This document shows positions 6,001 through 12,000 of a stretch of DNA of 39,241 bases, in pieces (within the stretch, counting starts at the first letter, position 1; the number at the start of each line of letters is the position of its first letter). The DNA comes from a bacterium (GTDB taxonomy: Bacteria > Hydrothermota > 32-111). The DNA lies in assembly GCA_050239825.1 (NCBI GenBank), contig JBFXGO010000008.1, positions 1 to 39,241 of the forward strand, given 5' to 3'. The position numbers are program-made.

Positions 6001-9000
6001 TAATTTCCAGCAATTTTGATTCTTTCAGATTTTCAGACAAGGTTGCCTCCATTTGTGGCAAGTATATTTTTAGAATAATACATTTTTTTATGCCTTATAA
6101 AAACACGCGGCACTCTTGGCCCTATGCCGGTCATAATTTCATATATAAGAGTCTTCGACATACCGGCAAGCCTGCTAAGGCGGATATTCTCGCCAAAGAC
6201 TTCCACTTCATCTCCGGCTTTCGCTGATTTTATATCTGAAACATCTATCATAGTCAGATCCATGCAGACATTACCTATGACTTTGGCTTCTCTGCCTTTT
6301 ACAAACATGCTTCCCCTGTTGGAGAGCGCTCTGGGATAACCGTCCGCATAGCCGATAAGACATGTTGCGATGCGCATATCCTTTTTAGCTGTGAATGTGC
6401 GCCCATAAGAGACTGATTCGCCTTTTCGAAGAATCTTTATCTGTCCTATCCGAGTCATAAGTTTCATCACCGGTTTTAGAGTTATACTGTCTCTAAGCCT
6501 CTCGTCTGTATATTGTCCGTATATCATTATACCGGGTCTGACAAGATTGTATCTGCAGTCAGACAAATTCTCAATCGCAGAAGAGTTGGCGATATGTCTG
6601 TATTTGAATTTTATTCCCTTCTTCTGCAGTTCATACAATATTATATCAAATCTTTTCTTCTGCGCAATAGAGAAAGATTTATTTTTCTTTTCCGCTTCGG
6701 CAAAATGAGAGAATATTCCCTCTATTCTGATATTTTTCAGTTTGGTCATTTCCTCTATCTGCTCTGCGGCATCTTGATAAAATATGCCGGTTCTGTTCAT
6801 TCCGGTATCAACCTCAACATGAGCATTCACCAAGCGTCTCTTCTTTCCAGCCGCTTTATCAAGTTTCTTAGCGAAATCCCGATTTATGATATTTGGCATC
6901 AAATTGTAATCTATGATTCTGTTTATATCAGATTCCATGGTGGGACTCAATATCAAAATCGGATTGTCTATTCTGTGTATTCTCAACTCTATAGCCTCAT
7001 CCATTGACGCTACTCCGAACATCTCCACCTGACGAGACAGAATGCGCGTAATTTCAATGCTGTCATGCCCGTAGGCATTGGCTTTTACGGCGGCAAGAAT
7101 CTTTACTCCTCCGCCAAGAAGCGATTTAAGCGCCTTTACATTATGCAAGAGATTATCTACATCAATCTCCGCCCATGTCCGATTCTTCATCCTTCTCCTT
7201 TAAAATTTCATTTTTTGTGAGAATCAGCCTCTCAAAATCTATAAGGAATTTTGTTTTCAGCGTGTAGTTGTCCCATGAAAAATCATACTCCACGAGGGAA
7301 TCAATGTCATAATTGTAAAATTTTTTAAATGATTCCAAAGATTTCGGATACCTCTTGTTCTGCCTGTAATATTCATCTATTCGGTTCTTAAGGTTCACAA
7401 CAGATACAAGTTTTTCGGATTCCTCGTCTATTTTCATGTTTTTCAGCTGGCTTGGCGGCTTGACAAAGAGAATCATCGCAGTTATCACTGCTAAAAATCC
7501 AAAAAGAATTTTGTAAAATTTTTCTTTATTCTGTTCCATTGCCTGAGTTCAGAAGTTTTTCATTGTTCTTCTCATCCACCATCGCTTGATTCCATCTGGG
7601 TTCAAACACAAGATTCACTTTGACATTTCCTTCCCCGGCTATAGCTTCAAGCTTCTGCTGAACATCTCCCATCATCATTGAAGCGAGAGGGCAACCCGGG
7701 AAAGTGAGCGTCATCACAACTTCAATCTTGTTGTCTTTTATTTCAACATCATATATCAATCCCAGTGTAACAACATCCATTCCTATTTCAGGGTCAAGCA
7801 CATTGCTGAGTTCATCTATAATCTGCTTTCTGTCCATAGCACCTCCATTATAATATTTATTTTTATCATATAAATATGTTATAGTCAATAGGGAAGACCA
7901 TAAATGATTTAAATTACCTGCCGGAAAACGCCAGTTTTTTATTGACGGAGATTTACTAAGCATTGCATACTTTGCTGTCTCATCTTCAATGCCCTCTTTC
8001 TGTACTTCTCTCCCCCGGTAAACTTGAAGAGCGTATAGTAAACAAATGCAATGTCCTCATCTTCGGGAAATTCTTTGACAATCTTCAAAAAGCCGTCTAA
8101 TGAATGTGTTTTATTTTTTATGAACGTTAACTTTTCCCTCATCAGTTCATGCTCAAATCTCGACTTCTTGTCATCAACAGCTGTTACTCTTGCTTCTGAT
8201 TCCGAGGGAGTATAATAAAATTGTGTAAAATCAATAGGAGTGGAATATAATAAGATTAACGAGAAGGAGATATTGAACCGAATAATGAAGAGTGAGCGAG
8301 AGATATATCTGTCAAGTAATGATGATTATGCTAATGGGTATATTGAACGGGGACTTGGAACACCTCGGGGAAAAAGAGAGAGGGCGGCTTTTAAACTTAA
8401 ACCGCCCTCTGCGGGAAAACTGCTTTCTCTTTTACCTTTTTGTGTTCTACCTTATTATCACCATCTTTCTGTTTATCTGTGTCTCTCCGTCTCTGAATCT
8501 TATGAAGTATATGCCTGATGAGAGATGTTCTGTTGAGTAGATGTGCTGACCTATCCTTCTCTCTTTCGCTCTATATACTTCCTTGCCATTTATATCATAT
8601 ACAGAAAATTTGTTATCCCCTGTTGAATTTGTATACCTTATTTCATTCTGTAGTATATCCATCTTATGATTCTCTTTATCTTGCTTCTCTTCAACAAACT
8701 TTTCTGTTACTCCCGTAGAAGGATCAAACTCTAAAATATATAATGCGCTTTCATCAGCAACATAGGCATAATCTCCTGAAACATAGACACCCTCAGCATA
8801 ACCCGGTGTATCGTAGCTTCCTGCAAGAGTTGGGCTTGAAGGATTTGAGATATCTATTATTTGTAAACCATCATAATCATCAGCAACATAGGCATAACTG
8901 CCTGAAACATAGACACCATAAGCCCACCCCAGTGTATCATAGCTCCCTGCAAGTGTTGGGCTTGTGGGGTCAGAGATGTTGATTATCTGTAGACTTGAAT

Positions 9001-12000
9001 TACGATCAGTAACATAGGCATAACTGCCTGAAACATAGACACCTATAGCATTCCCCGGTGTATCATAGCTTCCTGCAAGGGTTGGGCTTGAAGGATTTGA
9101 GATATCTATTATCCGTAAACCATAATCATCATCAGCAACATAGGCATAACTGCCTGAAACATAGACACCCCTTGCAATCCCCGGTGTATCATAGTTTCCT
9201 GTAAGTGTTGGACTTGTGGGGTCGGAGATGTTGACTATCTGTAGACCTGAATTACGATCAGTAACATAGGCATAACTGCCTGAAACATAGACACCTATAG
9301 CATTCCCCGGTGTATCATAGCTTCCTGCAAGTGTTGGACTTGAAGGATTTGAGATATCTATTATTTGTAAACCATAATCATCATCAGCAACATAGGCATA
9401 ACTGCCTGAAACATAGACACCATAAGCCCACCCCGATGTATCATAGCTCCCTGCAAGGGTTGGGCTTGTGGGGTCAGAGATGTTGATTATCTGTAGACCT
9501 GAATTACGATCAGTAACATAGGCATAACTGCCTGAAACATAGACACCCAATGCATAACCCGGTGTATCATAATAACCTGTTTCTGTTGGTGAAGCAGGAT
9601 TGCTTATGTCTATTATTCTAAGTCCTGCATCATAATCAGCAACATAGGCATAACTGCCTGAAACATAGACATCATAAGCATAACCCGGTGTATCATAGCT
9701 CCCTGTAAGGGTTGGGCTTGAAGGATTTGAGATATCTATTATCTGTAAACCATAATCATCATCAGCAACATAGGCATAATCTCCTGAAACATAGATACCA
9801 TCAGCATAACCCGGTGTATCATAGCTACCTGTTAGGGTTGGGCTTGAAGGATTTGAGATATCTATTATCTGTAAACCAGAATAACCATCAGCAACATAGG
9901 CATAACTGCCTGAAACATAGACACCCCATGCATAACCCGGTGTATCATAGCTTCCTGCAAGTGTTGGACTTGAAGGATTTGAGATATCTATTATTTGTAA
10001 ACCATAATCATAATCAGCAACATAGGCACAACTGCCTGAAACATAGACATCATAAGCATAACCCGGTGTATCATAGCTCCCTGTAAGTGTTGGACTTGAA
10101 GGATTTGAGATATCTATTATCTGTAAACCATAATCCTCATCAGCAACATAGGCATAACTGCCTGAAACATAGACACCATAAGCATAACCCGGTGTATCAT
10201 AGCTCCCTGTAAGTGTTGGACTTGAAGGATTTGAGATATCTATTATCTGTAAACCATAATCCTCATCAGCAACATAGGCATAACTGCCTGAAACATAGAC
10301 ACCCCTTGCATAACCCGGTAAACTAAAATAACCTACCAAAAAAGGATTTGCTTTGTCCTTAACATTTAACACTACTAAATAATTACTCATGCCAGAATAT
10401 GCTAATGTATCTACGATGAAAACATCATATGCACTTCCAAAGAAAGGATAAATTCCTACTCCCCTTACATTCAAACTATCTGTCGCCCAGTTGGGTTGAT
10501 TGTAATCTTCAGGTTGTTCAAAGTTAGCAAGAAGCATATCCTCTTCTCTGAATGGTCTCTCATTTGAAGCAAAAACAAACAATGCTAAAACAATAATAAG
10601 GAGAATAAAAATAACTTTTTTCATAATTCCTCCTGTATGAATTGTATAAATACTCCTTCTAATTTCTTTTTCACAACCATCTCCTTTTTATTAATCATTT
10701 CAATCTTATTGTATTGCGCCCACTTTGTCAAGAAGTTTGCATAATAGTATTGTAATGGTCAAGATTATATTTCACACCGTACTTTGCGATAGCAAAAGGG
10801 CGGGTTCTTCCAATCCGAAGACATCCTCTTCATAAACATTTATATCCGTTACCTAAATGGAAAAACGGTTACCCTAAAATCATTGCTAAATTATATTACT
10901 TCCGCCAATCCTTCGTTAATCTCTTTGGAGAACTCCCTTATGAATACTAATCCATCTTTACACAACTTTTTTGACAAGTCTCCCGTAGAGAGCCGATTCT
11001 TTGGTGTTCATGCCTGTGTAATTGTCATACAACCATTCCAGAAGGGCTTGTTCTGTCAATGAAAAATACTCTTTCAGAGCTTCATCCCATTTCCAGAGAT
11101 GCTTGTAAATATTTCCTTGAATTTCGTGAGTATTGATAATCACGGCAATTTCTTTAGAGTAATTCAAACTTCTGCTGTAATAATCCAAAGCATTTAGATT
11201 CATATATTTCTTCACCGCATACTCTCCTGCAAGGAGAAGATATTTTTCGGCTTTCGCAGAATCTCCTCCATTCTCAAAATGATATGCAAGCTCTCCCGCC
11301 TTTGATTCTATTTTTCTTTTGTATAAACTCTCCATGCACTCTCCTGCGAGGATGTGCATATTTCCTATTTTCTCTTTCATTTGAAGCTGATAGAGAGATT
11401 CTCTTATTATTGCATGTCTGAAGATATAGTTTATCTCATTTATAGGAGCTATTAGGGTTGAATACTCTCGATTATTCAATTCACCTTTGATTGACTTGTT
11501 TTTAAGCATTGAAGAGAGGACCTTCACAGAAAACTTTCTTCCAAGGACAGATGCAGTTTTAACAATGGTTCTTACGGATTCGGACAGAGCATCCACTCTT
11601 GAAACAATCATTGACTGAATATTGTCGGGCATCTCAATTCCCGATGAAGAGAGCCGAAGAATTCCATTGTCATTTACTGCAATTTTATTGTCCGTGAGAT
11701 AGAGTGTATCAGATATTTTTCCAGCCAGCCGCCCTTCTGTTTTTTATCATCAATATTTCTTATCAGTTCAATTGCGCTTGCACTTTCAAAACAGCCTATT
11801 CTGTCTGATTCGTCAAAGACAGCAGTAAATGCATCTCCAGCGAATTATGAAATGAAGCCGTTTCTTTTGTGAATTGTTTCCACCATCTCTTCAAATGATT
11901 TGTTTAGAATCTTCGAGACTATCTCCGCTCCATGTCTTCCCTTTTTCATCATCTCTTCGGTCAGTTTTGTAAAACCGGAAATATCTGCACTCTCTCGTTT

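What a model noticed while it worked through the whole genome (the two positions that open the first line are those of the whole stretch)
8447..10624. Secreted LVIVD beta-propeller repertoire: 126-bp repeats homogenised across seven loci, five top-face residues under div [...]
Seven T9SS-cargo paralogues on seven contigs (g00277, g00523, g00954, g01103, g01536, g01653, g01685; 6-13 repeats each) are built of one 42-aa/126-bp LVIVD unit that is as alike between genes as within a gene, i.e. it evolves in concert genome-wide, while five positions per blade are hypervariable. This is a bacterial, secreted counterpart of the fungal HNWD variable-repeat recognition repertoire.
Evidence so far: 57 internal units, all 57 distinct; nucleotide identity 85.3% within genes (245 pairs) and 85.3% between genes (1351 pairs); positions 8, 10, 24, 25, 26 have 8-10 residues each (2.1-2.6 bits, mostly Y/W/R/D/S) with pN 0.49 vs pS 0.16, the other 37 positions pN 0.07 vs pS 0.23; 48 different five-residue combinations. 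The same positions top the entropy ranking in G012 (same genus; 4 of 5 in top 4) and G001 (other genus; all 5 top). AF2 model shows four-stranded blades with the sites at the start of strand A and in the B-C loop, the propeller face used for binding in WD40 proteins. Expanded homologues in 17 of 19 class genomes. Search 'LVIVD' and a concerted-evolution search returned no such re [...]
(Added by a program. Inside this text positions count along the whole contig: contig position 1 is position 1 of the stretch shown here. "Call 12" and the like, gene names such as g00115 and contig names such as C1 are that model's own, and its searches are not shown. The text may have been shortened before it was handed on; [...] marks where a part breaks off. 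The agent that wrote the report below was given it as the finding of a first reader that could run no searches.)

Follow-up and report, generated by a model that had tools for sequence, protein, structure and literature searches.

The report
Transposon-borne variable surface propeller genes
An uncultured bacterium carries at least seven copies of a secreted repeat-protein gene, spread around its chromosome inside a stripped-down jumping element; the copies swap their repeats with each other while five surface positions per repeat are diversified, much like the fungal self/non-self receptors.

Summary
Observation confirmed: seven genes share one 126-bp LVIVD unit (59 internal units, all distinct; 85.4% identity both within and between genes). 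Positions 8, 10, 24, 25, 26 are hypervariable, Tyr/Asp/Ser/Arg/Trp-rich, and show excess amino-acid change here and in three of four related genomes tested. An alignment-based model (pLDDT 95) is a double seven-bladed propeller with those sites on the top face, as in fungal HNWD receptors. Units group by species, not by gene, and are mosaic. New here: each gene sits inside a non-autonomous IS256-family element (terminal inverted repeats, transposase remnants, five empty copies). The window copy splits a gene that is intact in a sister species, and that species' neighbour carries the cassette at other sites. So transposition multiplied the loci, recombination shuffles blades, and selection varies one face. 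Limits: variable top faces are common to homogenised LVIVD proteins generally (31 of 122 unrelated ones examined are homogenised, mostly at the same sites) and known for repetitive WD40s; no target duplications, no intact transposase, ligand unknown; short-read assembly may mix copies. Not an HNWD member (no NACHT or effector). The scan had noted other LVIVD paralogue arrays elsewhere, not this system.

The parts
8447..10624 (-). LVIVD double-propeller gene (725 aa), passenger of the element
10568..10624 (-). Sec-type signal peptide (aa 1-19), judged by eye
   Evidence: sequence; no predictor run
10334..10480 (-). N-terminal, non-homogenised blade with the closing (velcro) strand
   Evidence: secondary structure; 95-98% identical between copies
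8735..10333 (-). 13 tandem 126-bp LVIVD units; variable codons 8, 10, 24, 25, 26 in each
8450..8638 (-). T9SS type A C-terminal sorting domain
   Evidence: PF18962 E 2e-9, TIGR04183 above cut-off
10957..10982 (-). Left terminal inverted repeat (26 bp) of the IS256-derived element; homology with all other copies ends here
   Evidence: junction covered by an independent contig of run X1
10787..10982 (+). 3' remnant of the IS256 transposase gene, shared with empty copies
   Evidence: transposase identity of this end inferred from its frame and from the empty copies that join it to transposase DNA
10703..10731 (-). Sigma70-like promoter TTGACA-17-TAAGAT inside the element
   Evidence: consensus match only; 20 sites found vs 10.6 in shuffles
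8379..8410 (-). Terminator-like hairpin behind the gene
8265..8373 (+). 5' remnant of the IS256 transposase gene (91% identical to the G001 transposase)
8206..8230 (+). Right terminal inverted repeat (one base shorter than in other copies)
   Evidence: junction covered by an X1 contig
10979..11704 (-). 5' part of the interrupted target gene (TPR half of an adenylate cyclase/AAA/TPR locus)
   Evidence: tblastx to intact 647-aa ORF of G002
7987..8205 (-). 3' end of the interrupted target gene; about 850 bp of it are missing at the insertion

Best explanation
A secreted double seven-bladed beta-propeller gene with its own promoter was captured inside an IS256-family transposase gene. The resulting non-autonomous cassette (MIC/transporter-IS type) was copied to at least seven, perhaps nine, chromosomal sites. 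Homologous recombination and gene conversion among about 75-100 near-identical 126-bp units, faster within a gene but also between genes, keep the blade framework uniform and reshuffle blade order, while selection favours new residues at five top-face positions per blade. The proteins leave the cell through a T9SS-like route and most likely act as a set of binding proteins (adhesins or lectin-like/receptor-like) for a changing external partner. Shown: repeat statistics, fold, element anatomy, lineage-specific insertion sites, mosaicism, excess amino-acid change. Inferred: transposition as the means of copying, secretion, binding function.
For: Element: all complete loci share sharp ends with 26-bp imperfect inverted repeats; 15 left and 16 right ends in the genome (one of each a variant family), five empty 356-420-bp copies; internal DNA matches PF00872 and is about 90% identical to a transposase of G001 that lies tail-to-tail with an LVIVD gene. 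Mobility: window copy splits a gene intact in G002; C53 copy is absent from the syntenic G002 site; a G001 copy sits at a site empty in G000; runs X2 and X4 show the left end joined to flanks not found in G000. In G001 the left repeat precedes 4 of 5 LVIVD genes whose 5' end was fetched, the exception being the diverged one. Concerted evolution: nearest neighbours stay within species for 59 of 59 and 30 of 30 units, 10 near-fixed differences; framework tree groups G000, G006, G011 units by genome (93, 100, 92) and no gene forms a clade. Reshuffling: flanks 94-98% identical but in-register units at background in 9 of 10 gene pairs; four-gamete failure rises with distance in G000; the non-tandem 5' part has 7 of 16 informative sites off the best tree vs 0.3-1.5 in clonal simulations. 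Selection: omega against unit-wide synonymous rate 2.5-3.0 (G000), 1.8-2.1 (G001), 3.2-3.8 (G006), 2.3-2.9 (G011); framework 0.3-0.6; the same residues use different codons in G000 and G001. Fold: pLDDT 95, 56 strands, sites at D-A loop/strand A start and B-C loop, matches tandem WD40 double propellers, TM up to 0.79. SprA-like and PorV-like genes present.
Against: No target-site duplication at 10 of 10 two-ended copies; no intact transposase in the G000 assembly; G001 copies C35b and C67 lack a right end. The strict within-codon test of omega>1 is significant only in G000 at kappa 3 (p=0.02) and not in the four other genomes; G002 shows no excess. No distance trend of recombination in G001 (p=0.18); G001 units are not monophyletic. 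G001 copy C35b has discordant flanks, which may be misassembly. No contig of any run spans the array. C55 has 11 blades and G001 C67 12, not multiples of seven. No ligand or expression evidence.
Confidence: 0.62

Rival explanations
1. Escape variation rather than recognition: the proteins are surface-exposed targets of phages, predators or epibionts, and the top face varies to avoid being bound (antigenic-variation logic).
For: Same genomic signature (multi-copy, recombination, omega>1). Secreted, likely surface-exposed.
Against: The variable sites are 42% aromatic in G000 and 43% in G001 and confined to one face while the other loops stay uniform; an active binding face fits this better (inference; likeness to antibody-loop composition is recalled). 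All copies are intact with promoter; no silent donor copy found.
Confidence: 0.17
2. Selfish or near-neutral spread: a recently amplified propeller rode a hyperactive IS256 derivative; between-gene likeness is just recent copying plus within-gene shuffling, and the five sites are merely the most tolerant surface positions.
For: Genome is full of MITE-like repeats and empty copies; rare alleles cluster within genes; positions 8, 10, 25 also top the entropy list in old, diverged LVIVD repeats; within-codon test mostly not significant; independent re-amplification of propellers is common (PMC9218822).
Against: Amino-acid change at these codons exceeds the unit-wide synonymous rate in 4 of 5 genomes, which relaxed constraint alone cannot give; all seven frames are open and the framework is under purifying selection; two thirds of rare-allele sharing is between genes and non-tandem flanks are mosaic.
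Confidence: 0.12
3. Assembly artefact: strain mixing or graph jumps between near-identical repeats created the mosaic and the equal within/between identity.
For: Short-read metagenome assembly; repeats collapse in Logan contigs and none spans the array; 70 exact matches of 55 bp or more between loci other than C17-C9; discordant flanks in G001.
Against: Outside the C17-C9 pair no exact match between loci exceeds 84 bp; both flanks of the C17 and C53 copies are syntenic in G002; both window junctions are in independent contigs at single-copy depth (22-24) while shared gene ends are at 80-130; the per-unit pattern recurs in independent genomes.
Confidence: 0.07
4. Diversity-generating retroelement or other targeted mutator acts on the five codons.
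For: Third codon positions are almost all T at positions 8, 24, 25, 26; a reverse transcriptase lies in the window.
Against: The only RT in the genome is AbiP2-like (E 1e-179); no template copy of the unit outside the loci; no A at the first base of codons 24 and 26 in 59 units; position 10 does not fit an AAY template.
Confidence: 0.02

Closest known systems
Fungal HNWD/NWD family of Podospora anserina (het-d, het-e; PMC1805685, passages read)
   Same: About 70 near-identical propeller repeats over about ten loci, concerted evolution within and between loci, positively selected codons in the d-a loop and b-c turn, 55 combinations among 69 units (here 50 among 59).
   Different: HNWD proteins are cytoplasmic NACHT receptors with a death effector and a known partner (HET-C); these are secreted LVIVD propellers with no NTPase or effector, five sites rather than four, no RIP, and are carried by an IS-derived element.
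Highly repetitive prokaryotic WD40 proteins and bacterial NLR repeats (PMC5587647; bioRxiv 10.1101/2020.01.06.895854; passages read)
   Same: High internal identity with diverse predicted hotspot residues; a similar diversifying regime was proposed for bacterial NLR repeats.
   Different: Those reports concern WD40/TPR repeats, measure identity within single proteins and, in the passages seen, do not test multi-locus exchange or selection; no mobile element.
Continuous amplification of propellers from single blades (Pereira and Lupas 2022, PMC9218822; one of eight parts and passages read)
   Same: Species-specific blade consensus, conserved non-amplified first strand, varying blade numbers.
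   Different: Explains likeness by independent amplification; 'LVIVD', 'gene conversion' and 'positive selection' occur 0 times in its main text.
Mobile insertion cassettes, MITEs and transporter ISs (PMC3129680, PMC9330008; IS256/p-MULT1 in PMC3942029; passages read)
   Same: IS ends with a passenger gene and no intact transposase, plus empty MITE-like copies.
   Different: Passenger is a 1.9-2.7-kb hypervariable secreted repeat gene in 7-9 copies; no direct repeats found; PMC3942029 found only plain IS organisation among its 109 IS256-family elements.
LVIVD-repeat cell-surface proteins (Pfam PF08309; Adindla 2004, PMC2447325, only abstract held)
   Same: 42-aa repeat, cell-surface proteins.
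   Different: Function undescribed; most members have diverged repeats.

Membership tests
HNWD-type variable-repeat receptors | Near-identical propeller repeats evolving in concert within and between loci | tested here: met
   (with assembly caveat)
HNWD-type variable-repeat receptors | Positively selected codons in d-a loop and b-c turn (top face) | tested here: met
   strict within-codon test weak
HNWD-type variable-repeat receptors | NACHT NTPase and N-terminal effector domain | tested here: not met
   signal peptide, repeats, optional Ig-like domains, CTD only
HNWD-type variable-repeat receptors | Repeat alleles determine recognition specificity for a partner | not testable with these tools
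   no ligand known
IS256-derived non-autonomous element (MIC/tIS type) | Imperfect terminal inverted repeats at both ends | tested here: met
IS256-derived non-autonomous element (MIC/tIS type) | Transposase of the Mutator/IS256 family (remnant or in trans) | tested here: met
   remnants PF00872, 94-98% aa identical to G001 transposase; no intact copy in G000 assembly
IS256-derived non-autonomous element (MIC/tIS type) | Target-site duplication (8-9 bp, length recalled) | tested here: not met
   0 of 10 two-ended copies; target DNA lost at both resolvable sites
IS256-derived non-autonomous element (MIC/tIS type) | Occupied versus empty sites in relatives | tested here: met
   2 of 4 G000 loci tested have syntenic empty sites in G002; C50 and C9 inconclusive; one G001 site empty in G000
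T9SS cargo | Signal peptide plus type A CTD | tested here: met
   signal peptide by eye
T9SS cargo | Translocon SprA and PorV in the genome | tested here: met
   SprA_N in 20 of 21, PorV in 21 of 21 genomes; PorK/L/M/N not tested
Diversity-generating retroelement | DGR-clade RT, template repeat, adenine-specific variation | tested here: not met
Beta-propeller fold | Four-stranded blades closed into toroids | tested here: met
   predicted only:

The most novel reading that the evidence does not exclude
A transposon-built, recombination-driven library of secreted binding proteins in bacteria: an IS256 derivative has been domesticated to raise the copy number of a variable propeller gene, and the dispersed copies act as one gene pool that generates new binding faces, an NLR/VLR-like repertoire displayed outside the cell against a fast-changing partner (phage, epibiont, prey or glycan).
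Probability: 0.35. Interest if true: 0.82.

Novelty: new variant of a known kind. Interest (0 to 1): 0.66.

Why it matters
HNWD-style diversification has been shown in fungi and only proposed for bacteria; this is a measured bacterial case, in a secreted protein of a repeat family (LVIVD) with no known function, and it adds a way the multi-locus pool can arise: carriage in an IS-derived cassette. It points to five residues per blade as the LVIVD binding surface, which makes the function of a very large family (over 20,000 representative proteins at E<=1e-30) directly testable, and offers a natural binder scaffold with a built-in residue palette.

Tried and rejected
Single-sequence AlphaFold model: pLDDT 60, no PDB match; replaced by the 35-row alignment model. 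Sequence search of PDB: nothing below E 0.008. DGR: rejected. Target-site duplications, also across copies: only two chance 5-mers. Empty-site searches for C50 and C9 were inconclusive; C33, C55 and C29 were not tested. Search for an intact cognate transposase: none in G000; close match only in G001 among 151 phylum genomes and one locus in the genome collection. No RNA holder listed. Read laying used contigs only and cannot confirm unit order. Literature searches: 'LVIVD' (29 papers, listing only, none on repeat evolution), propeller amplification (37), HNWD (43), IS256/passenger (59), repetitive WD40 (72), WOR-3 with T9SS (80, 85: none), repeat shuffling in bacterial surface proteins (86); none described this system, but subscription journals are largely missing and no supplements were read. 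No complex prediction was sent because no partner is known.
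Full report
What is there. Window 8447-10624(-) encodes a 725-aa protein with a hydrophobic N-terminus, 13 LVIVD repeats and a T9SS-type sorting domain. The genome G000 (2.1 Mb, 67 contigs, 99% complete) holds seven such genes on seven contigs, and two further 3' ends at contig breaks (C40, C58). Three carry a longer tail with Ig-like domains. A same-genus genome's contig is filed publicly under candidate division WOR-3, in line with earlier scan notes on this genome.

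Repeat statistics. From 75 units I dropped the 14 terminal ones and 2 with indels. The remaining 59 are all distinct; mean identity is 85.4% within and 85.4% between genes (permutation p=0.42). Positions 24, 10, 25, 8 and 26 carry 2.0-2.7 bits, the next 1.45; 50 of 59 five-residue faces differ. The palette is Y 36%, D 17%, S 12%, R 8%, W 5%.

Concerted evolution. Units of G000 and of the same-genus G001 are 73% alike across species but 85% and 83% within; every unit's nearest neighbour is in its own genome (59 of 59, 30 of 30) and 10 sites are near-fixed differences. On framework codons, G000, G006 and G011 units each form a clade (93, 100, 92); G001 and G002 units do not, and no single gene does (a tree of recombining 111-base units is a rough tool). 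The copies' 5' flanks are 94-98% identical, yet in-register units are at background level in 9 of 10 gene pairs; only C17-C9 keep register over most units. Four-gamete failures rise from 46% to 75% with distance in G000 (0 of 5000 permutations), with no such trend in G001 (p=0.18). Rare alleles are shared within a gene in 24 of 71 pairs against 15% expected, so exchange is faster within genes, but most sharing is between genes. The non-tandem 5' part is also mosaic: 7 of 16 informative sites off the best tree, against 0.3-1.5 in clonal simulations, which had somewhat fewer informative sites.

Selection. Pairwise pN/pS is 0.54/0.10 at the five codons and 0.07/0.21 elsewhere; with the sites fixed from G000, G001 gives 0.53/0.21, G006 0.65/0.17, G011 0.42/0.10, G002 0.54/0.19, while more diverged genes (G005, G008, G017) approach saturation. 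Counting each allele once, omega against the unit-wide synonymous rate is 2.5-3.0 in G000 (p<=5e-5), 1.8-2.1 in G001, 3.2-3.8 in G006, 2.3-2.9 in G011, but 1.0-1.25 in G002. Against synonymous changes in the same five codons only G000 at kappa 3 reaches p=0.02. G000 and G001 encode the same residues with different codons (for example Glu GAG vs GAA, Arg AGG vs CGT/CGG, Ser TCT vs AGT), which suggests the palette was reached twice. Control: among 122 of 150 unrelated representative proteins with six or more gap-free units, 31 have frameworks of 70% identity or more, and on average 3.9 of their five most variable positions are these same ones. The variable face is thus a general LVIVD trait.

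Structure. A single-sequence model (pLDDT 60) matched nothing. With a 35-row alignment the model has pLDDT 95, pTM 0.81 and 56 strands, i.e. 14 blades, and matches tandem WD40 double propellers (Utp21 tandem WD domain, AIP1, other SSU processome chains; TM up to 0.79). Position 8 ends the D-A loop, 10 opens strand A, 24-26 form the B-C loop: the places where HNWD repeats carry their selected codons (PMC1805685, passages). Blade counts are 14 in four loci, 7 in C50, 11 in C55.

Homology among the loci stops sharply about 358 bp upstream of the start and 245 bp downstream of the stop, at 26-bp imperfect inverted repeats. The same two ends occur joined without the gene in five 356-420-bp copies. 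The DNA inside the ends is IS256/Mutator transposase remnant, about 90% identical in DNA to a transposase gene of G001 that lies tail-to-tail with an LVIVD gene. The passenger lies on the opposite strand with its own promoter-like and terminator-like sites. In G001 the left end precedes 4 of 5 LVIVD genes whose 5' ends were fetched; in the 14 regions from other relatives no such end lies before the gene, so homogenised arrays exist without the element (G011, G006) but in only one or two of the loci examined per genome. The window copy splits a 647-aa TPR gene that is intact in G002, with about 850 bp of target lost; the C53 copy is missing from the syntenic G002 site; a G001 copy occupies a site empty in G000, again with target loss; C50 and C9 were inconclusive. 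Contigs of run X1 cover both window junctions at depth 22-24 while shared gene ends reach 80-130; X2 and X4 join the left end to flanks absent from G000, though these may belong to empty copies. Against a clean transposon reading: no target duplication in 10 of 10 two-ended copies, no intact transposase in the assembly, and two G001 copies without a right end. Transposase-driven adjacent deletions would explain this (inference; several ends abut half of another repeat).

Secretion. SprA-like (1815 aa) and PorV-like genes are in G000 and in 20 and 21 of 21 genomes searched; eight C25-family proteins are present, none shown to be PorU. Whether the proteins stay on the surface is open.

Assembly risk. 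No contig of any run spans the array, and a G001 copy has flanks from two different G000 sites, either a real crossover or a misjoin. But exact matches between loci other than C17-C9 do not exceed 84 bp, and C17 and C53 exit on the syntenic flank, so wholesale mixing is unlikely.

Comparison. It works like HNWD but is not a member (no NACHT, no effector). Diverse hotspot residues in repetitive bacterial WD40s (PMC5587647, passages), the proposal of such a regime for bacterial NLR repeats (bioRxiv 10.1101/2020.01.06.895854, passages), continual propeller amplification (PMC9218822, part 2 of 8 and passages) and IS-derived passenger cassettes (PMC3129680, PMC9330008, PMC3942029, passages) are all in print. 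The eight searches that returned an answer showed no report of an LVIVD repertoire or of a variable-repeat gene multiplied by an IS derivative; the library lacks most subscription journals and no supplements were read. Verdict: real; new variant of a known kind; interest 0.66.

Noticed in passing
window 33697-35190 (-): 497-aa reverse transcriptase, best match AbiP2 (PADLOC E 1e-179); the only RT in the genome; lies near a restriction-modification pair.
   Followed up: partly
window 29371-30360 (-): An old, diverged LVIVD gene (5-6 units) outside the homogenised set; several more on C50, C42, C12, C25, C49, C63.
   Followed up: no
window 10979-13016 (-) and L054:2777-6686: Adenylate cyclase/AAA/TPR (STAND-like) locus, two ORFs in G002, fragmented in G000 and split by the element.
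   Followed up: partly
G000:C36:23292-23654 and C7:1049-1708; 20-21 of 21 relatives: SprA-like and PorV-like genes across WOR-3 genomes; the search for WOR-3 with T9SS terms returned no paper holding all terms.
   Followed up: partly
L026 and L051 (G001:C35, C112) vs G000:C18:27567-27658 and C46: G001 copy has the upstream flank of one site and the downstream flank of another: crossover between loci or misassembly.
   Followed up: partly
G000:C55:1335-3134; L027: Genes with 11 and 12 blades, not multiples of seven; C50 has exactly seven after losing the N-terminal blade.
   Followed up: no
window 10724-10798: 75-bp piece that carries the promoter and matches a repeated end in G002 (C66, C25) and G000:C3; G001 copies use a different promoter, so capture may have been remodelled or happened twice.
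   Followed up: partly
G000:C7:49136-49540, C50:140186-140590: Transposase remnants are 94-98% identical in protein to G001's although neighbouring genes are about 70-75% identical in DNA: recent horizontal spread of the IS or strong constraint.
   Followed up: no
P0093, P0137, P0074: Unrelated large proteins with LVIVD frameworks up to 95% identical and exactly the same five variable sites.
   Followed up: no
G000:C55:3366-3640, C33:42881-44295, C50:28887-29741: Nested insertions of this and other MITE-like families into each other.
   Followed up: no
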